From IMG/VR virus record IMGVR_UViG_3300014625_000033: a stretch of DNA of 12,579 bases; one strand, 5' to 3'. The stretch comes from a virus. Taxonomy: Duplodnaviria > Heunggongvirae > Uroviricota > Caudoviricetes. Both the position numbers and the translations under genes were made by a program. Under the pieces are notes generated by a model. It made no database searches. It was not told where the DNA came from and worked only from the letters and a program-made list of their open reading frames with translations. Of this stretch, positions 642 through 10,940 are shown one piece after another. Position 1 is the stretch's first letter, and each line of letters opens with the position of its first letter.

Positions 642-848
642 CTTCATTTTCACTTTCTTAAATCTAACGACAGATGGCTAACATTTAAGTATTGTGAAAT
701 ATTATCAAATGTAATCATCATTGATTTACAAAAGATACATTTTGCCCCGAAAGGATTTCTGTCAGAAACATCAAAAGATGATGTTCTATACTGAGAACCA
801 TGGCAACACGGGCATCTAAAGTGAATATGGTTTGTAATATTTTCTACC

Positions 849-1061
849 TCAAAGTGCCACTACATGAACAGCTGCAGGGCCTTTAGGTCCGTTCTCAATA
901 CCAAATTCGACTTCCTGATTCTCAGTTAACGTTTTGAAATCGTTGCTCTGAATAGCTGAGAAATGCACAAACACATCTTTGCTACCATCTTTCGGCGTGA
1001 TGAAACCAAAACCTTTTTCAGGGTTAAACCATTTCACTAAACCAGTCATTTTGTTAGACAT
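849..1061 (-). CDS. cspI: Cold-shock protein CspI (CspA family, S1-like cold-shock domain), 70 aa
   Basis: Translation [70 protein letters not shown] carries the RNP1/RNP2 motifs (KGFGFI, VFVHF) and matches CspI as I recall it. SD AAGG upstream of the tandem ATGs. Confidence 0.9.
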
Positions 1062-1204
1062 CATTATTACCTTTTGAAGAAGTTAGCCCTTGGGCAGAAT
1101 GGTCCGAAAAAAAATATCAGAAAGAAAAACCAACAAGGAAATCTCAAGAGGTACAAATAATAAAATTATAACAATGACTGCTTCAGATAATTTTGTAACA
1201 AACC

Positions 1205-1241
1205 AGAACACCATTAACGCATGATTAACCAACCATAGCAA
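1205..1241 (-). promoter_or_regulatory. Candidate cspA-type promoter for cspI: -35 TTGCTA (1241..1236), 17-bp spacer, -10 GTTAAT (1218..1213), AT-rich UP-like region upstream; predicts a 5'UTR of about 145 nt
   Basis: Minus-strand read: TTGCTAtggttggttaatcatgcGTTAAT. This resembles the cspA promoter architecture (TTGCAT / CTTAAT), and the predicted leader length matches the long leaders typical of cold-shock genes. Confidence 0.4.
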
Positions 1242-2764: not shown

Positions 2765-2980
2765 TTACTCTCCTCTCGCAGCCTTACGCCTGTCTTCTTT
2801 AATCTTGAAATAAAGATTTGTCAGATACGTCAGCATGCCAAATACCAGACTACCCAATACACCTATTGCCGCCCACTGTGAGGGCGTGACTTTATCGAGC
2901 AACTGTAAAAACCAGTAGCCAGCACTGCCTGCAGAGGTGCTGTAGGCGATGCCCGTTGTTAACTTATCCATGGATTTCAT
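2765..2980 (-). CDS. essQ: Class II pinholin (phage 21 S21-like) with dual-start motif MKSM, 71/68 aa
   Basis: [71 protein letters not shown] has two TM segments and matches S21 as I recall it. ATGs at 2980 and 2971; strong SD GGAGGTGAGG. The ORF-track upstream extension is not used. Confidence 0.85.
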
Positions 2981-3070
2981 AGCCTCACCTCCGCAGATAA
3001 CGGATGGTGTACACGGTTTGGTTCGAAGAAGGAAAGAAGTTACATTAGCGTAAGGCCCGAACATCTATTC

Positions 3071-3101
3071 AAAAAGAAAAACGCCAGCAATTATTCTGGC
3101 G
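3071..3101 (-). terminator. Intrinsic terminator downstream of the AraC-family gene: hairpin CGCCAG-(8 nt)-CTGGCG followed on the minus strand by a T-rich run (TTTTTCTTTTT)
   Basis: Plus strand reads aaaaagaaaaaCGCCAGcaattattCTGGCG. It sits between the cargo gene and the holin start. Confidence 0.5.
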
Positions 3102-3170
3102 TAGCTAAAAATATCGTATAATCTTACACTTCAAAAAATAACTTTATAAAATACCATCACATCATATCTT

Positions 3171-3884
3171 CTAAGAAAATCTTGATAAATATTGGTGCGG
3201 AGGCACACCAAAATATCCTCTAAAAACACTTACAAAATATGATGCATTGTCATACCCGCATATTCCCGCCACCTTGCCGACAGTATGGTTACTGTAGATC
3301 AATAATCTTTGCGCCATCATCATTCGTTCTTCAAGAATTAATTTACTAAACGATAATCCTTCGTCTTTTAATTTTCTTTTTAACAAACTCTCGCTCATAT
3401 ATAATCTTGAAGATATATCACAAAGTCTCCATGACGCAGAGATATCCGAGTGAATAATAGCCTTAACTTTACAACCTAAGCTATTAAGACTTCCGAACAA
3501 AAAACTTTGCACTATTTTCTCTGAAGATAAGACAGCAAGACATGCAAGTGATATTTGATTTCTAACTACATCCACGGTTTTGCTATCACAATTCAAGCAT
3601 GCAACCAAGTTCTTTAACAATGAAAAATCTTCACATTCTACTATCAAGTATGACGGATAAAACCTTCTTACAGAAAAAGGTGAGAGTGTGTAGTTTTTAA
3701 AGAAATCATTAACTGTTTTCTCCTCAACATCTACGATCATTAGATGATCTGTATTTGACGAAAAAAGATCTTTTAAATTGTATTCAATGAGGACAGCATT
3801 TCCTTTTTTAAACAAAATATCTTCTTTACCAATTCGGACACCAAACGAGTTCAACACCAAAATGATAGAACATATGTATGGCAT
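3171..3884 (-). CDS. AraC/XylS-family transcriptional regulator (AppY/Rns-like short type), 237 aa from ATG at 3884; markedly AT-rich cargo gene
   Basis: C-terminal double HTH typical of AraC/XylS (…SESLLKRKLKDEGLSFSKLILEERMMMAQRLL…VGKVAGICGYDNASYFVSVFRGYFGVPPHQYLSRF). SD AGGTGGA precedes the ATG at 3884; the ORF-track start at 3893 is GTG. Base composition is far lower in GC than the flanking phage genes. Confidence 0.8.
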   Translation of the reverse strand: MPYICSIILVLNSFGVRIGKEDILFKKGNAVLIEYNLKDLFSSNTDHLMIVDVEEKTVNDFFKNYTLSPFSVRRFYPSYLIVECEDFSLLKNLVACLNCDSKTVDVVRNQISLACLAVLSSEKIVQSFLFGSLNSLGCKVKAIIHSDISASWRLCDISSRLYMSESLLKRKLKDEGLSFSKLILEERMMMAQRLLIYSNHTVGKVAGICGYDNASYFVSVFRGYFGVPPHQYLSRFS

Positions 3885-4290
3885 ATTATCCACCTGATAT
3901 CATTGGGGTTACACCAGGTAAGTATAGGTGGAAAATCAATATTCGCCAGTTCAACAATAAGGAAAATCTCATTGCATCACAACTATAAAACCATGTGTTT
4001 AACTCACAAAAAACAAATCATTAAACTAATCTGTTATATTATAATAGCTGCGTGCAATAATAATATTATATGCTCTTAATATTCACTTGAAATATCTTCA
4101 TATAAAAACAGATTGAATAAAATCTTTTGGGGCTGGTATGTTTACCAACATTAAATTGCATCTCAATGTTTTCTTTAGCGTGAACAGGATTTTTATAAAA
4201 ACTGACACTATGAGCATCATAGCGTAGTTTTTACGATTGTAAATATCCTGCATACAGGAACTCATCACTTTCAGATGATATCGCATACAG

Positions 4291-5250
4291 TTAATTCACC
4301 ATCAGTCTTAGAGCCAGTTCTTCCGGATAGGGATCGAAGTAGTTCTGTGTAAGCAAGTAATCATTAGGATACTCACCCAGATAATGCTTCAGCAGAGTCA
4401 ACGGCGCAAGAAGAGGCAATGTGCCAAAGCGATAGTTAAGTATAACCTCGCTCAACTCTTTACGCTGGCGTGTACTTAAGTAATTACTAAAATACCCCTG
4501 TATATGCATCAGCACATTCGTGTGATTTTTACGTGATGCTGGTTTTCTGAGAATCGCCATCAGATTATCACGATACACCTCAAAGTATGATTCAAGGTCC
4601 GCCCACTCGTGTATTGCAGCCACAAATGGTCCCATATCTTTATAGCCTGCCTGGCTATGCGCCAACAACTGAAGCTTATAACGACTATGAAAAGCTAATA
4701 ACTCTCTTCTTGATAATTTCTCCTTGTAAAGGTGATTGAGCTCATGCAAAGCAAAAACTCTTTCAATAAAATTCTCACGAAGCACTGGATCATGTAATCG
4801 CCCATCCTCTTCAACCGGTAGCCAGGAAAACTTTTCCATCAAAGTGCTCGTAAATAGTCCCACTCCATCTTTACGACCTCGATTACCATTTTCATCATAG
4901 ACACGCACGCGCTCCATGCCACAGCTGGGAGATTTAGCACAAACCACAAACCCCGATACATCCTTTAATTTGTCCATATAAGAACGACTAAACTCTGTCA
5001 TTCTCTCTGTCACATCCTCATTCTGGTCGTGGCTGAAACACATCCGTATATTTCCTTGCTTCGAGCGCACAAGTCGTAGAGCAGGACGCGGAACTGGCAG
5101 CCCTATAGCCATTTCCGGACATACTGGTCTGAATGTTACCCATTCCACTAATTTGTCCATTAAAAAGTCATCTCTTTTGTGACCACCATCAAAACGAACA
5201 GCAGAACCGCCCAAACAACCGCTGATCCCAATCACAGGTTTTTTTATCAT
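4291..5250 (-). CDS. DUF523 (TudS-like, putative [4Fe-4S] thio-nucleobase desulfurase fold) fused to DUF1722 (YbgA-like), 319 aa
   Basis: N-terminus MIKKPVIGISGCLGGSAVRFDGGHK with further conserved Cys in PVCPEM and VVCAKSPSCG matches the DUF523/TudS pattern; the C-terminal half resembles DUF1722/YbgA. Strong SD GGGGGAGGA before the ATG at 5250. Confidence 0.75.
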   Translation of the reverse strand: MIKKPVIGISGCLGGSAVRFDGGHKRDDFLMDKLVEWVTFRPVCPEMAIGLPVPRPALRLVRSKQGNIRMCFSHDQNEDVTERMTEFSRSYMDKLKDVSGFVVCAKSPSCGMERVRVYDENGNRGRKDGVGLFTSTLMEKFSWLPVEEDGRLHDPVLRENFIERVFALHELNHLYKEKLSRRELLAFHSRYKLQLLAHSQAGYKDMGPFVAAIHEWADLESYFEVYRDNLMAILRKPASRKNHTNVLMHIQGYFSNYLSTRQRKELSEVILNYRFGTLPLLAPLTLLKHYLGEYPNDYLLTQNYFDPYPEELALRLMVN

Positions 5251-5442: not shown

Positions 5443-5967
5443 ATGAAGTTATGGCCTGTGTTGACTGGCATTGCACTCTCTTTCACTCTTATAGCATGTA
5501 AGGCCCCGACACCACCTAAAGGTGTGCAGCCGATTACAAATTTTGACGCCAACCGCTACCTCGGAAAATGGTATGAAATAGCTCGCCTCGAGAACTGGTT
5601 CGAACGTGGTCTGGAACAGGTCAGCGCTACTTATGAAAAACGGAACGACGGAGGGATTCGCGTACTTAACCGTGGATACGATCCAACGAAAAACAAATGG
5701 AGCGAGAGCGAAGGTAAAGCATACTTTACTGGAGATACTAAAACTGCAGCGTTGAAAGTTTCGTTTTTTGGCCCCTTCTATGGTGGCTATAATGTAATCA
5801 AACTGGATGATGAGTATAAGTATGCTCTTGTCAGTGGTCCGAACAGAGAATACCTATGGATTCTGGCAAGGACCCAAACTATTCCAGATAATGTAAAAGC
5901 AGACTATGTGCGTACCGCTCAAAAGTTGGGATTCAATGTCAATGAACTATTATGGGTTAAACAATAA
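5443..5967 (+). CDS. blc: Bacterial lipocalin (Blc family) outer-membrane lipoprotein, 174 aa
   Basis: Lipoprotein signal with lipobox LIAC, then lipocalin motifs (FDANRYLGKWYEIARLENWFERG; KVSFFGPFYGGYNVIKLD; YLWILARTQ), nearly collinear with E. coli Blc as I recall it. SD AGGA 7 nt upstream. Transcribed opposite to all flanking phage genes. Confidence 0.85.
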   Translation: MKLWPVLTGIALSFTLIACKAPTPPKGVQPITNFDANRYLGKWYEIARLENWFERGLEQVSATYEKRNDGGIRVLNRGYDPTKNKWSESEGKAYFTGDTKTAALKVSFFGPFYGGYNVIKLDDEYKYALVSGPNREYLWILARTQTIPDNVKADYVRTAQKLGFNVNELLWVKQ

Positions 5968-5995
5968 AATCCCCACCCGAAATGATACTTATTAG

Positions 5996-6022
5996 AAAAA
6001 AACCAGCCTTTGGGGAGGCTGG
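5996..6022 (-). terminator. Intrinsic terminator (candidate tR') downstream of the Q gene: minus strand CCAGCC-tccccaaa-GGCTGG followed by T7
   Basis: Plus strand reads aaaaaaaCCAGCCtttggggAGGCTGG. It lies about 100 nt downstream of the Q stop, where lambdoid phages place PR'/qut/tR'. It also lies just downstream of the convergent blc-like gene. Confidence 0.55.
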
Positions 6023-6122
6023 CTAAATCAGGAAACAAGCTGTTATATGATAATAACTACGTTGCGATTCCAACATTTAAAATGTTAGACTAATGAAAAT
6101 CAGACAGCAACTTTTCCTTTAA
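6023..6122 (-). promoter_or_regulatory. Candidate late promoter PR' / qut region between Q and the terminator
   Basis: Positional inference from lambdoid architecture. Minus strand contains TTGGAA-(17-18 nt)-CATATA-like elements, but I could not pick a single convincing -35/-10 pair. Confidence 0.3.
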
Positions 6123-6500
6123 TTATTTCGAACAATCAGCATCCATCTCCAATCGGAGATCCAACACCATCAGCATGCCCTCCACTACGCCCTCAGCTTT
6201 CTGGAGCATCCTGCCAACCCAACAATCAGATCGCCCATGCTTACGTGCAAGCGCCATAAAAGTCATGCCGCCGACATAATAGTCCACCAATAAATCATGT
6301 AAATCGCTGTTGTTTTTTTTCAGGCGAGCCATACATTCACAAATGATCATCGCGTCATCGTCACAGCATTGCGGACGAGATCTTACTTTTGAAGGAATTA
6401 ATCCCTTAAAACCGGCGGCAATGGACGACCAGGTCACATCTTCATGATTATTAGCCGCCCATGCCCCCCAACGCTCAAGAACCATCTGAATATCACGCAT
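6123..6500 (-). CDS. quuQ: Late-gene antiterminator Q (phage 82 / QuuD family), 125 aa from ATG at 6500
   Basis: [63 protein letters not shown]... matches the QuuD/QuuQ sequence as I recall it, including the Cys-rich zinc motif. SD GGAG precedes the ATG at 6500; the ORF-track start at 6515 is TTG. Confidence 0.85.
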
Positions 6501-6517
6501 CAACTTACTCCACAAAA

Positions 6518-7522
6518 TTAGGCCAGCACACCAATTGCCAGCGCGCGATCGATAAATCGAAAAATCAGCTCCAGTTGGGAGCCATACTTCTCTTCAAATG
6601 CCACGGTATCCGTATGCAACTCGTCGTGATGCTTTCTGCACAAAGGCAAAACAAAGAGATCATGTGCTTTGGTTCCCATTCCGCCCTGCCCGTGACCAAT
6701 CAGATGATGCGGATCGTCGGCTGGCATACCGCAGCAAGCACACGGCTGTGTCTTAACCCAGCGTGTGTATTTCTCCTTAACCCACCGGTGACGTTTAGGC
6801 AGCTTCATGAAAGATTCCGGAGACTCTGGATCAACGGTGATGCTTACCACCGTCTTTTCCTGTGATGGGTTTTGTTGCTGGTGGGCGTGAGGCAACGGTG
6901 CAAGATTTTTTGTGCGCTGTTTCAATATGCTGGTGGCGGTCTGCTCTCCCGGTACGATGTCGCTTTCGCGGTACACCGAGCAGATTTTTTCCGCTGGTAA
7001 TCCCAGCGAGCGACGTAATACCGCTTCCGGTAGCGCGTCCGCCAGCTGATTGCGGACCGCCCACCAGGATAATTCAGCCAGAGATAATTCACGCTCCTGC
7101 GTACCGCTTATTGCGTGACCGATGACGTCAATCATCCATGCTGACAGGTTTTGATGAGCAAGTTGCTCGAGTGATTCGGATGTCTGGTCACGCAGCTGGT
7201 TGTCGCAGTGCCAGCACAACACCATTGCGCCGGTACCATATCGGTGAATAACGGTTTCGCTGTGATGATAATCGCCGTGTGGCCACTGGCAGGATTTAAT
7301 ATGGCGCAACAGCCAGTCAGACAATGCACCAGCACCACCAGCAGCACGAATTACCCGTGCGTTACTGAAAAACGGCAGCAATGTTTTGTCTTCCACCAGC
7401 GGCTGGCGAACGGCAGGAACGACCCCGGACGGCAGATTACGCATGCTTTTCGGTTCCGGCTCCACCAGTACCCGGGTATTGTGGAATACCGGCATGGATT
7501 CACGGCCCGGCTTAACGACCAC
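6518..7522 (-). CDS. ydfU: YdfU-like DUF968 protein with C-terminal HNH-like Cys/His motif, 334 aa (GTG at 7522; alternative ATG at 7495)
   Basis: C-terminus [22 protein letters not shown]...[10 protein letters not shown] has CxxC...HH...C..HH spacing typical of HNH nucleases. Position between rem and Q matches K-12 Qin. Confidence 0.75.
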
Positions 7523-7772
7523 CAGCCCGAGTTCCGGTATCCCTGGTGTCGATAGCCTTCCAGCGTTCGAATATCTTCACTCGATTAACGCTAAGCGCTC
7601 GCTGATCAACCGCGCCACCTTCATATGTGACACGCTGAACATCGATGTTCGGGCGCTCTTTCAAAGCCCAGAATGCTTCAGTGATTAATATCGTCGCCTG
7701 CTCCTGTGTCATTCCTGGTCGACATATCCAGGCATCCAGAGCCTCACGAGCCTGTTCAGGAGTGATTTTCAT
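7512..7772 (-). CDS. rem: Rem-like small protein, 86 aa
   Basis: ATG at 7772; translation MKITPEQAREALDAWICRPGMTQEQATILITEAFWALKERPNIDVQRVTYEGG... Synteny with K-12 Qin rem. It overlaps both neighbours (dicC-like 3' end and ydfU 5' end). Confidence 0.6.
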   Translation of the reverse strand: MKITPEQAREALDAWICRPGMTQEQATILITEAFWALKERPNIDVQRVTYEGGAVDQRALSVNRVKIFERWKAIDTRDTGTRAGGR

Positions 7773-7983
7773 TGTTCAACCGCCCCGCCCGCTTCGTCTT
7801 ACGATATTCGTCATAAACTTTGGGATCATACTGAAGCTCCCCGCCAGATGCCTCCTGTAGACGCATCGCGCGACCTTCAGGAACCAGTATCCCCCAAGCA
7901 GCAACACTTGCCAGTCTCACTCCTGCGGCATTGGCAAGCTTTGTTTTGCTGCCAAAAAAAGTAATTGCGTCAACTTTAAGCAT
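7756..7983 (-). CDS. dicC: Cro-like regulator DicC (YdaS/DicC family), 75 aa from ATG at 7983
   Basis: Small ORF divergent from the dicA-like repressor across an operator-containing intergenic region; SD AGAGGGGG; length about 76 aa as for DicC. Identification is by position, size and partial sequence recall. Confidence 0.7.
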   Translation of the reverse strand: MLKVDAITFFGSKTKLANAAGVRLASVAAWGILVPEGRAMRLQEASGGELQYDPKVYDEYRKTKRAGRLNNENHS

Positions 7984-7996
7984 CAAAGCCCCCTCT

Positions 7997-8014
7997 TGTT
8001 AGACTTTTCTAACA
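7997..8014. promoter_or_regulatory. Operator-like palindrome TGTTAGA-cttt-TCTAACA in the dicC/dicA divergent promoter region
   Basis: Perfect 7-bp inverted repeat with 4-bp spacer, 14 nt from the dicC-like start codon; the same half-sites recur downstream of dicA (8507..8526). Confidence 0.55.
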
Positions 8015-9613: not shown

Positions 9614-9671
9614 TTTCTGGTGACGTTTGGCGGTATCAGTTTTACTCCGTGACTGCTCTGCCGCCGTTTTT
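9614..9671 (+). ncRNA. dicF: DicF small regulatory RNA (Hfq-dependent, represses ftsZ translation)
   Basis: Sequence TTTCTGGTGACGTTTGGCGGTATCAGTTTTACTCCGTGACTGCTCTGCCGCCGTTTTT matches the E. coli DicF sequence I recall almost base for base, including the terminal hairpin and U-tract. Confidence 0.9.
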
Positions 9672-10310: not shown

Positions 10311-10940
10311 ATGAGTAAAGTCTTTATTTGCGCCGCTATTTCTGACGAACTGGCAACAAGGGAAGAAGGCGCTGTGGCTGTAGCCACAGCCATTGAAGCT
10401 GGCGACGAACGCCGTGCTCGAGCAAAATTTCACTGGCAGTTCCTGGAACATTATCCGGCTGCTCAGGACTGCGCTTATAAATTTATTGTCTGCGAGGATA
10501 AACCTGGCATACCCCGCCCTGCCCTCGATTCATGGGATGCTGAATATATGCAGGAAAACCGCTGGGATGAGGAGTCTGCTTCTTTTGTCCCGGTTATGAC
10601 CGATGAAATCCCGTTAGATGATGCACTGTTACAATTGCGGGAATTTATCGACGAAAACTCCGGTGAATTTTTTGTTCATGTCTGGGGAAATGGAGCCAAC
10701 TTCGACAACACGATTTTGCGCCGTTCATACGAACGGCAGGGGATCCCCTGCCCGTGGCGTTACTACAACGATCGCGATGTACGCACAATCGTTGAGCTGG
10801 GGAAAGCCATAGACTTCGATGCCAGAACGGCTATTCCATTCGAAGGTGAGCGCCATAATGCACTTGATGACGCCCGTTACCAGGCAAAATACGTTTCAGC
10901 TATCTGGCAAAAACTGATCCCGAGTCAGGCTGATTCTTAA
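10311..10940 (+). CDS. ydfE: YdfE-like protein, 209 aa, with C-terminal DnaQ-like 3'-5' exonuclease-type motifs; apparently intact
   Basis: Motifs VWGNGANFDNTIL (Exo II-like N..FD) and ERHNALDDARYQAKY (Exo III-like H-x-A-L-D-D-A). No canonical N-terminal D-x-E Exo I motif was seen. Position after ydfD matches K-12 ydfE, which I recall as disrupted there. Confidence 0.7.
   Translation: MSKVFICAAISDELATREEGAVAVATAIEAGDERRARAKFHWQFLEHYPAAQDCAYKFIVCEDKPGIPRPALDSWDAEYMQENRWDEESASFVPVMTDEIPLDDALLQLREFIDENSGEFFVHVWGNGANFDNTILRRSYERQGIPCPWRYYNDRDVRTIVELGKAIDFDARTAIPFEGERHNALDDARYQAKYVSAIWQKLIPSQADS

What the first reader, a model, noticed from the sequence alone, without database searches (positions are those of the whole stretch)
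4291..5250. Prophage-borne DUF523 (TudS-like) / DUF1722 (YbgA-like) fusion protein with conserved cluster-type cysteines
The N-terminal half has the Cys pattern (GISGCLGG, PVCPEM, CAKSPSCG) expected for the DUF523 family, whose characterised member TudS is a [4Fe-4S] 2-thiouracil desulfurase. The C-terminal half is YbgA-like; the chromosomal ybgA is co-operonic with the photolyase gene phr. An enzyme that removes sulfur from thiolated pyrimidines in a phage late-expressed cargo position raises testable ideas: editing of thiolated tRNA nucleosides (s2U/s4U), nucleotide salvage, or a role in defence or counter-defence. None of these is established.
Basis: partly seen in the sequence, partly recalled or inferred. 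Interest (0 to 1): 0.65.

Follow-up and report, generated by a model that had tools for sequence, protein, structure and literature searches.

The report
Prophage-borne RudS tRNA 4-thiouridine desulfidase
The gene is real and sits in a prophage, but it belongs to the already described RudS family, enzymes that strip the sulfur from 4-thiouridine in tRNA, and a 92%-identical phage copy has already been tested, so only its role in the phage remains open.

Summary
Window 4291-5250 (minus strand) is an intact 319-aa ORF with an N-terminal PF04463 (TudS/DUF523) domain and a C-terminal PF08349 (DUF1722) domain. It lies in a Qin-type lambdoid prophage of E. coli, between the Q antiterminator and the holin, not at the chromosomal ybgA-phr locus.

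The function is no longer open. The TudS-DUF1722 fusion was named RudS in 2024 (PMC11417400), a [4Fe-4S] desulfidase that converts s4U in tRNA to U. [quoted passage not shown] The catalytic residues are conserved across 146 diverse homologues.

New here:
- The Q-blc-rudS-AraC-like-holin module is in about 21% of complete E. coli genomes (the paper says E. coli lacks RudS), on several lambdoid backbones and in plaque-forming phages.
- It is under purifying selection (dN/dS 0.11-0.24).
- The divergent blc|rudS pair mirrors a chromosomal blc-merR-rudS locus of Enterobacter and relatives, with the MerR regulator missing.
- A BL21-type strain carries a remnant whose C-terminal part is missing, next to an IS3.

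Why lambdoid phages carry an s4U eraser is unknown. Verdict: already known kind, modest interest.

The parts
4291..5250 (-). rudS-type gene, 319 aa (TudS/DUF523 + DUF1722 fusion); the finding itself
   Evidence: ORF. Pfam PF04463 + PF08349. 92% identical to the tested RudS_vir of phage 1H12. phrog_3275 over its full length.
4804..5232 (-). Catalytic TudS domain, residues 7-149, with C12, C44 and C110 (predicted [4Fe-4S] ligands) and E46, R55, S107, S109
   Evidence: Pfam. Residues conserved in 139-145 of 146 homologues. The AlphaFold model matches only the TudS structures 6zw9/6z96/6z93/6z92, target-normalised TM 0.65-0.68. phmmer hit to 6z92.
4324..4677 (-). DUF1722 domain, Pfam residues 192-309 (all-helical region about 155-315 in the model); the tRNA-binding domain in RudS
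   Evidence: Pfam. Helices H155-315 in the model. 49% identical to K-12 YbgA. The tRNA-binding role comes from PMC11417400.
5443..5967 (+). blc-type outer-membrane lipocalin gene, divergent from rudS (192-bp intergenic region); same cargo block
   Evidence: Pfam Lipocalin_2 and NCBIfam Blc. 75% identical to the lipocalin next to merR-rudS in L017 against 59% to K-12 Blc. Adjacent to rudS in 42 of 64 loci from species-representative genomes.
3171..3893 (-). AraC/YdeO-like regulator gene (RefSeq start at 3884); second block of the cargo
   Evidence: Pfam HTH_18/HTH_AraC, with YdeO as best NCBIfam match below cutoff. 48% identical to an O157:H7 AraC regulator that is probably PatE. Present in 72 of 80 viral loci together with blc, Q and holin.
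6123..6500 (-). Q antiterminator (QuuD-like), upstream boundary of the module
   Evidence: Pfam Phage_antitermQ, E 8e-51. RefSeq annotation in strain H2. Homology to the K-12 DLP12 quuD region ends at window 6141.
5991..6024 (-). Intrinsic-terminator-like hairpin plus T-run about 100 nt after the Q stop codon; candidate tR'
   Evidence: Terminator scan: 9-pair stem followed by TTTTTTT. Sequence read. 88-93% of columns are invariant among the 5 aligned cassette copies (window plus 4). Its function is inferred.
3071..3102 (-). Terminator-like hairpin between the AraC-like gene and the holin
   Evidence: Terminator scan: 7 pairs, 5 of them GC, then a T-run. Its function is inferred.
2765..2980 (-). 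Holin (essD/essQ-type), downstream boundary of the cargo
   Evidence: Pfam Phage_holin_2_1. RefSeq essD in strain H2. Homology to K-12 Qin and DLP12 resumes at about 3000-3009.

Best explanation
The ORF encodes a RudS-family enzyme. It is an N-terminal TudS-type desulfidase domain that should hold a [4Fe-4S] cluster on Cys12, Cys44 and Cys110. The free fourth iron binds the sulfur of 4-thiouridine, and Glu46, Ser107 and Ser109 (with Arg55) catalyse replacement of S by O. The C-terminal helical DUF1722 domain docks the enzyme onto tRNA. The net reaction is s4U8 to U8 in tRNA, erasing the near-UV-sensitive modification made by ThiI.

The gene is part of a roughly 3.1-kb cargo (blc | rudS | AraC-like regulator) in the classic moron slot between the Q antiterminator and the lysis cassette of lambdoid E. 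coli phages. Here that phage is a decayed Qin-type prophage. The divergent blc|rudS pair was most likely captured from an enterobacterial chromosomal blc-merR-rudS locus and lost the MerR-type regulator.

Shown here: domain architecture, residue conservation, context, distribution and purifying selection. Shown in the literature for a 92%-identical allele: lowering of tRNA s4U in E. coli. Inferred:
- Cluster binding and activity of this particular allele.
- Q-dependent read-through from a promoter just after Q must cross rudS to reach the holin. If so, rudS is co-expressed with the late genes on induction.
- The benefit is relief of s4U-dependent near-UV growth delay or the stringent response, either in lysogens or during UV-triggered induction.
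For: - Domains: full-length Pfam hits to both domains.
- Closest tested relative: 293/319 identity with no gaps to phage 1H12 gp66. That protein is RudS_vir in Table 1 of PMC11417400, with Cys12/44/110. All six RudS orthologues tested, including RudS_vir, lowered tRNA s4U on overexpression in E. coli. Cys, Glu, Ser and Arg mutants of RudS_KT lost activity, and DUF1722 mediates tRNA binding.
- Residue conservation among 146 homologues of 37-76% identity: C12 144, C44 144, E46 145, R55 144, S107 145, S109 139, C110 142.
- Fold: the model (pLDDT 80) matches only TudS crystal structures.
- Context: Qin prophage between ydfJ and rspB, in the order Q | blc | rudS | AraC-like | holin. The same module is 90-92% identical in phage IdasGreatGrand, phage 1H12 and two other prophage backbones.
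- Distribution: 1136 of 5426 complete E. coli genomes have the gene, 1064 of them over at least 80% of its length. 79 of 80 IMG/VR loci carry an intact 319-aa ORF with all catalytic residues.
- Selection: dN/dS 0.11-0.24 between alleles.
- Origin: blc(-)|merR(+)|rudS(+) in 38 of 64 loci from species-representative genomes, and a bare blc|rudS pair in 3 loci; the one checked (Citrobacter sedlakii, L105) lies among ordinary chromosomal genes. The window Blc is 75% identical to such a neighbour against 59% to E. coli Blc.
- Terminator-like hairpins lie after Q and before the holin on the rudS strand.
Against: - No biochemical or expression data exist for this allele. It differs at 26 residues from the tested RudS_vir.
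- In the paper RudS_vir was the less active orthologue on tRNA despite good protein levels. It also gave the shortest lag on free 4-thiouracil, so its preferred substrate may not be purely tRNA.
- No convincing sigma-70 promoter was found upstream of rudS or after Q. Promoter-like sites in the region are no more frequent than in shuffled sequence (13 against 11.7 expected). Timing of expression is therefore unresolved.
- blc is on the opposite strand, so the cargo is not a simple late-operon insert.
- The window's prophage is decayed, so any phage-cycle role cannot operate in this particular copy.
- No literature in the held library links s4U with prophage biology.
Confidence: 0.8

Rival explanations
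1. The enzyme works mainly as a TudS-like salvage desulfidase on free 4-thiouracil, 4-thiouridine or 4-thio-UMP. It would recycle thiolated pyrimidines released by tRNA turnover rather than acting on intact tRNA.
For: The TudS catalytic domain is complete. In PMC11417400 the viral RudS gave the shortest lag of all RudS proteins on 4-thiouracil, and its tRNA desulfidation appeared lower despite high protein levels.
Against: None of the RudS variants supported growth of the uracil auxotroph the way TudS did, and none grew on 2-thiouracil. RudS_vir did reduce tRNA s4U, whereas stand-alone TudS did not. The DUF1722 tRNA-binding domain is intact and under purifying selection.
Confidence: 0.1
2. The primary selected role is in phage-host conflict, as defence or counter-defence. 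For example, it might alter tRNA so that a tRNA-targeting host or rival-phage system no longer recognises or cleaves it. The molecular activity would still be s4U removal.
For: The gene sits in a lambdoid moron slot, where conflict and conversion genes accumulate. It is retained in intact, plaque-forming phages.
Against: None of the three cargo proteins hits PADLOC. Chromosomal orthologues sit next to MerR regulators or in a CFA-synthase/amine-oxidase stress cluster rather than in defence islands. No literature link was found. No known tRNA-targeting defence system is known to depend on s4U (own knowledge).
Confidence: 0.07
3. The gene is inert baggage in a decaying cryptic prophage, an ORF kept by chance with no function.
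For: The window's Qin copy has lost blocks present in strain H2. BL21-type strains carry only the first 147 nt, the rest of the gene being absent next to an IS3. Some genomes carry IS insertions in the cassette.
Against: dN/dS is 0.11-0.24 between alleles. 79 of 80 viral loci are intact with all catalytic residues. The gene is present in complete lambdoid phages. The allele 92% identical to it is active in vivo.
Confidence: 0.02
4. It is the host's chromosomal ybgA locus misread as prophage cargo.
For: RefSeq names the product 'YbgA family protein'. The C-terminal half is homologous to YbgA.
Against: It is flanked by Q, holin, lysozyme, Rz, DicA/DicF and an integrase at the Qin site between ydfJ and rspB. 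K-12 ybgA is at ybgA-phr, has DUF1722 only and is 49% identical. The NCBIfam YbgA equivalog score is 189 against a cutoff of 237. The gene is absent from 79% of E. coli genomes.
Confidence: 0.01

Closest known systems
RudS_vir (Escherichia phage 1H12 gp66, H3V29_gp66), the phage RudS assayed in Jamontas et al. 2024, NAR 52:10543 (PMC11417400)
   Same: Same length (319 aa), 92% identity without gaps, same Cys12/44/110. Same neighbours: Q-like antiterminator | Blc | RudS | a roughly 240-aa regulator | holin.
   Different: 26 substitutions. The downstream AraC-like block is only about 80% identical at the DNA level. This copy sits in a decayed Qin-type prophage rather than in a viable phage.
RudS_KT (Pseudomonas putida PP_0741) and chromosomal enterobacterial RudS (e.g. 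Salmonella STM1389/ORF319, Enterobacter, Citrobacter)
   Same: TudS + DUF1722 fusion with the same catalytic Cys/Glu/Ser/Arg set. Enterobacterial copies are also 319 aa and 65-76% identical.
   Different: Chromosomal copies sit beside a MerR-type regulator, often with blc (38 of 64 loci from species-representative genomes), or at the end of an SDR, amine oxidase, DUF1365, CFA synthase, DUF2878, DUF3833 cluster. According to the paper they are often in light-responsive operons. The prophage copy has no MerR gene and lies between Q and the lysis genes.
TudS (stand-alone DUF523; PDB 6Z92/6Z93/6Z96/6ZW9), [4Fe-4S] thiouracil desulfidase
   Same: Fold and cluster-ligand pattern of the N-terminal half.
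   Different: TudS is about 150-166 aa with no DUF1722. It acts on free 2- and 4-thiouracil or 4-thio-UMP and did not change tRNA s4U in vivo, whereas RudS proteins do not grow on 2-thiouracil. Only about 25% identity.
E. coli YbgA (b0707), stand-alone DUF1722 in the ybgA-phr operon
   Same: Homologous to residues 164-315 (49% identity).
   Different: YbgA has no catalytic domain, and its overexpression had no effect on s4U. It is at a different locus, and the match falls below the NCBIfam equivalog cutoff.
Cargo in the Q-to-lysis slot of lambdoid phages (stx in Stx phages, nmpC in DLP12, cspB/cspF in K-12 Qin)
   Same: Same insertion slot. Homology to DLP12 and K-12 Qin stops inside the 3' end of Q or at the ydfU stop codon just upstream of Q, and resumes about 20 nt before the holin.
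   Different: Different cargo: a tRNA-modification eraser, a lipocalin and an AraC-like regulator.

Membership tests
RudS (TudS-DUF1722 tRNA s4U desulfidase) | N-terminal TudS/DUF523 domain (PF04463) | tested here: met
   E 5.8e-40, profile 1-141 of 141, residues 7-149. Foldseek hits only the TudS structures.
RudS (TudS-DUF1722 tRNA s4U desulfidase) | C-terminal DUF1722 domain (PF08349) fused in the same polypeptide | tested here: met
   E 9.4e-40, profile 1-117 of 117, residues 192-309.
RudS (TudS-DUF1722 tRNA s4U desulfidase) | Three conserved cysteines that hold the [4Fe-4S] cluster (Cys12/44/110 in RudS_vir and RudS_ST) | tested here: met
   C12, C44 and C110 are present and align with RudS_vir. 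Conserved in 142-144 of 146 homologues and in all 14 prophage alleles.
RudS (TudS-DUF1722 tRNA s4U desulfidase) | Catalytic Glu, two Ser and Arg (RudS_KT Glu51, Ser111, Ser113, Arg60) | tested here: met
   E46, S107, S109 and R55 are present and conserved in 139-145 of 146 homologues. The mapping to KT numbering uses the offset from the flanking cysteines (inference); the RudS_KT sequence itself was not aligned.
RudS (TudS-DUF1722 tRNA s4U desulfidase) | Binds a [4Fe-4S] cluster and converts s4U in tRNA to U | not testable with these tools
   Shown in the literature in vivo for the 92%-identical RudS_vir and in vitro for RudS_KT. Not shown for this allele.
TudS (stand-alone thiouracil desulfidase) | Single-domain protein of about 150-170 aa acting on free thiouracils | tested here: not met
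   319 aa with a fused DUF1722. 25% identity to 6zw9. RudS proteins did not grow on 2-thiouracil.
YbgA (NCBIfam NF007549 equivalog) | Score at or above the curated cutoff; stand-alone DUF1722 at ybgA-phr | tested here: not met
   189 bits against a cutoff of 237. 49% identity to K-12 YbgA, at a different locus.
Lambdoid-phage moron in the Q-lysis slot | Non-essential cargo between the Q antiterminator and the holin, replaceable between related phages | tested here: met
   Flanked by Q and the holin. K-12 Qin has cspB/cspF and DLP12 has nmpC in the same slot.
Lambdoid-phage moron in the Q-lysis slot | Own promoter and terminator allowing expression from the repressed prophage | tested here: inconclusive
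   Terminator-like hairpins were found on the rudS strand, including 4225-4205 just after rudS. No convincing promoter was found, and promoter-like sites are at background frequency.

The most novel reading that the evidence does not exclude
In intact lambdoid phages, rudS may be a Q-dependent late gene. Its product would erase s4U8 from host tRNA during SOS/UV-triggered induction. That would prevent the near-UV s4U8-C13 cross-linking, uncharged-tRNA build-up and ppGpp burst that would otherwise stall translation just when virions must be made. In lysogens with leaky or AraC-like-driven expression, it would make about a fifth of E. coli strains differ in near-UV physiology from K-12. This would be a phage-encoded tRNA-modification eraser used to manage the host stress response.
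Probability: 0.25. Interest if true: 0.6.

Novelty: already known. Interest (0 to 1): 0.3.

Why it matters
The molecular identity adds little, because RudS and its phage-borne form are published. Three smaller points are useful.

- A functional-looking s4U eraser is present in about one in five complete E. coli genomes through lambdoid prophages. This contradicts the statement that E. coli lacks RudS. It matters for anyone using s4U or near-UV phenotypes across strains.
- The common expression host BL21 carries only a remnant whose C-terminal part is missing.
- The cargo has lost the MerR-type regulator of its chromosomal relatives and now sits downstream of a phage antiterminator. That gives a concrete, testable case of a tRNA-modification eraser rewired to a phage programme.

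All three cargo proteins are still 'unknown function' in PHROGs, so phage annotation could be updated.

Tried and rejected
- Promoter search around rudS and after Q. The consensus scan gave background numbers (13 found, 11.7 expected), with nothing at 9/12 or better in the 192-bp blc-rudS spacer. Manual reading gave only weak candidates, which I do not use as evidence.
- A 26-nt direct repeat (4028-4053 and 6037-6062, 85%) lies in two AT-rich regions. Its meaning is unclear, and two-copy short repeats are often chance.
- I tested whether the unannotated 175-aa ORF in the Citrobacter CFA-synthase cluster is a lipocalin related to the cargo Blc. It is not.
- I tried to align the blc-rudS spacer with the Citrobacter chromosomal spacers to find a shared operator. 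They are too diverged.
- PADLOC search for a defence role: no hit.
- Literature search for a link between s4U or ThiI and prophage induction, lambdoid phages or phage defence: nothing relevant.
- Search for papers on the 1H12 / Lambda_ev phages: only taxonomic mentions.
- Rfam and tRNA scans found no tRNA gene or RNA element in the cargo.
- Foldseek found no solved homologue for the DUF1722 half.

Full report
**Observation.** The coordinates 4291-5250 delimit one intact ORF on the minus strand: 319 aa, ATG start, preceded by GGGGGAGG. Pfam matches both halves over the full length of the profiles. PF04463 ('2-thiouracil desulfurase', formerly DUF523) covers residues 7-149 with E 5.8e-40. PF08349 (DUF1722) covers residues 192-309 with E 9.4e-40.

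I collected 50%-identity cluster representatives (6522 with E<=1e-3, 1170 with E<=1e-30). I then aligned 146 full-length homologues of 37-76% identity. Conservation was C12 144/146, C44 144/146 and C110 142/146. E46 (145), R55 (144), S107 (145), S109 (139) and R19 (144) are also kept. C104 is usually Lys and C71 usually Val, so they are not conserved family residues. An AlphaFold2 model (pLDDT 80, pTM 0.78) has an alpha/beta N-terminal half and an all-helical C-terminal half. Foldseek against the PDB returns only the four TudS entries (6zw9, 6z96, 6z93, 6z92; probability 1.00, target-normalised TM 0.65-0.68). Nothing matches the helical half.

**Context.** The window is a Qin-type lambdoid prophage of E. 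coli. Around the gene lie:
- a Q antiterminator (6123-6500, minus strand) and a DUF968/YdfU gene;
- a P21-type holin (2765-2980), YdfR, a lysozyme, an Rz-like gene and cspI with its cspA-type 5' thermoregulator;
- DicA, the DicF sRNA and a tyrosine integrase.

The window is 100% identical, in three pieces, to the prophage between ydfJ and rspB in E. coli strain H2. On the minus strand the order is Q | blc (opposite strand, 5443-5967) | the 319-aa gene | an AraC/YdeO-like regulator (3171-3893) | holin. K-12 Qin carries cspB/cspF in this slot and DLP12 carries nmpC. Homology to DLP12 stops inside the 3' end of Q (window 6141) and resumes at 3000. Homology to K-12 Qin stops at 6518 (the ydfU stop codon, just upstream of Q, because the Q gene itself differs) and resumes at 3009. 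The cargo is therefore about 3.1 kb. K-12 ybgA is at ybgA-phr, has DUF1722 only and is 49% identical to residues 164-315. The NCBIfam YbgA equivalog scores 189 bits against a cutoff of 237.

[quoted passage not shown] The main results of that paper are:
- Overexpressing any of six RudS orthologues in E. coli lowered tRNA s4U 4.7- to 26-fold. Stand-alone TudS and YbgA had no effect.
- The three cysteines bind a [4Fe-4S] cluster whose fourth iron binds the substrate. Mutating Cys17/49/114, Glu51, Ser111, Ser113 or Arg60 of RudS_KT abolished activity.
- DUF1722 binds the anticodon region of tRNA.
- Expression of RudS_KT reduced the UVA-induced growth delay.

One of the six orthologues was RudS_vir, gp66 of Escherichia phage 1H12, with Cys12/44/110. 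That phage is among my hits. Its gp66 is 293/319 (92%) identical to the window protein, without gaps, and sits in the same Q | Blc | RudS | regulator | holin arrangement.

The paper adds two qualifications. RudS_vir was expressed well, yet its tRNA desulfidation appeared lower than that of RudS_ST. It also gave the shortest lag of the RudS proteins on free 4-thiouracil, and none grew on 2-thiouracil. This keeps a partly TudS-like salvage activity open as a minor rival.

**Distribution and selection.**
- The 3-kb cargo is found in 1154 of 5426 complete E. coli genomes. The gene itself is in 1136, of which 1064 cover at least 80% of it. Almost all copies are chromosomal. This contradicts the paper's remark that E. 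coli lacks TudS or RudS homologues.
- The likely reason for that remark is visible in a BL21-type genome. Its Qin prophage has Q and blc but only the first 147 nt of rudS; the rest of the gene is absent, with an IS3 lying next to the remnant. K-12 Qin has different cargo.
- The whole module from Q to the holin (window 6542-2764) is colinear at 90-92% in four other elements. These are the complete swamp-mud phage IdasGreatGrand, phage 1H12, a DLP12/lambda-like prophage and a prophage with e14-like immunity.
- In IMG/VR, 72 of 80 loci carry blc, the AraC-like gene, Q and the holin together. 79 of 80 have an intact 319-aa ORF, in 14 alleles, all with the C-C-E-R-S-S-C set.
- dN/dS between alleles is 0.11-0.24.
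- The Q-blc-rudS block is much more uniform among variants than the rudS-to-AraC spacer and the AraC-like gene. This suggests two sub-modules joined near 4280-3990.

**Origin.** Outside E. coli the nearest proteins are chromosomal RudS of Citrobacter, Klebsiella, Enterobacter, Serratia, Pectobacterium and relatives. All are 319 aa and 65-76% identical. The 64 loci from species-representative genomes divide as follows:
- 38 have blc (minus) | MerR/MlrA-like regulator (plus) | rudS (plus).
- 3 have a bare divergent blc|rudS pair. The one I checked, in Citrobacter sedlakii, sits among ordinary chromosomal genes (betT, a pseudouridine synthase, lysC).
- 12 have rudS as the last gene of an SDR, amine oxidase, DUF1365, CFA synthase, DUF2878, DUF3833 cluster.
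- The other 11 show mixed or no such neighbours; 2 of them are E. coli prophage fragments in a contaminated MAG.

The window's Blc is 75% identical to the lipocalin beside one such merR-rudS pair. It is only 59% identical to E. coli's own Blc. The simplest reading is that blc and rudS were captured together and the MerR-type regulator was lost. A 73%-identical copy in Salmonella Derby lies next to ttcA with integrase fragments and a DUF1367 phage gene, so that copy too is in a prophage remnant.

**How it probably works in the phage (inference).** A strong terminator-like hairpin with a T-run (6024-6001) lies on the rudS strand about 100 nt after the Q stop codon. Another lies at 3102-3081, just before the holin. 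By analogy with lambda pR'/tR' and with stx in Stx phages (own knowledge), Q-modified RNA polymerase would have to read through antisense blc, rudS and the AraC-like gene to reach the lysis genes. That would make rudS a late-co-expressed gene in intact phages. I could not identify the promoter, and promoter-like matches are at background level. Whether rudS is also expressed from the repressed prophage is unknown.

A plausible benefit follows from the published physiology. Removing s4U prevents the near-UV cross-link that causes uncharged tRNA, ppGpp accumulation and growth delay. That could help a lysogen, or help a phage induced by UV. None of this has been tested, and I found no paper connecting s4U with prophages. 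None of the cargo proteins matches a known defence family. All three are 'unknown function' PHROGs.

**Verdict.** The feature is an already known kind with a near-identical tested member. What remains open is the biological role and regulation of the phage-borne copy, together with the unappreciated fact that about a fifth of E. coli strains carry it.

Noticed in passing
window 3171-3893 (-): AraC/YdeO-like regulator in the same cargo. It is 48% identical to an O157:H7 AraC regulator next to an integrase (WP_000246059.1). That protein is probably the prophage-encoded acid-resistance regulator PatE (z0321, OI-8), but this was not verified. The gene is far more divergent between cassette variants than Q-blc-rudS.
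   Followed up: partly
locus L006 (NZ_CP053600.1, Nico21(DE3), a BL21 derivative) 5001-5147: The Qin prophage of this BL21-type strain keeps Q and blc but only the first 147 nt of rudS; the rest of the gene is absent, with an IS3 next to the remnant. This explains why the standard expression host shows no RudS activity.
   Followed up: yes
window 7500-8000 and 10311-10940, compared with L001: The window's Qin copy is more decayed than in strain H2. The rem/hokD/AIPR/DUF977/YdaT block is missing. The 209-aa ORF at 10311-10940 is a fusion of the N- and C-terminal ends of a roughly 820-aa phage exonuclease.
   Followed up: partly
window 9615-9666 (+) and 803-1208 (-): DicF sRNA (72.5 bits) and a cspA-type thermoregulator 5' UTR in front of cspI (111 bits). 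Both are ordinary Qin features.
   Followed up: no
window 4028-4053 and 6037-6062: A 26-nt direct repeat (85%) containing TATAAT/TATCAT-like sequence. One copy lies just after Q and the other upstream of the AraC-like gene. These may be related promoter elements or chance.
   Followed up: no
locus L163 (K-12) 1093-2511: K-12 ybgA (DUF1722 only) has an H-repeat transposase gene (ybfD) directly upstream. This fits loss of an ancestral TudS half by insertion or deletion.
   Followed up: no
loci L007, L015, L016 (Citrobacter, Klebsiella): In these genera rudS is the last gene of a conserved cluster: SnoaL, SDR, amine oxidase, DUF1365, CFA synthase, DUF2878, a 175-aa protein and DUF3833. The function of the cluster is uncharacterised here.
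   Followed up: partly
loci L151 and L156 (MAG 'Candidatus Nanosynbacter sp.' contigs): Short contigs carry the E. coli prophage cassette at 92-98% identity. This is almost certainly E. coli contamination in the binned genome.
   Followed up: no
window 4098-4286 (-): A 62-aa ORF in the AT-rich rudS-to-AraC spacer has no family hit and lies in the most variable, indel-rich part of the cassette. It is probably not a gene.
   Followed up: partly
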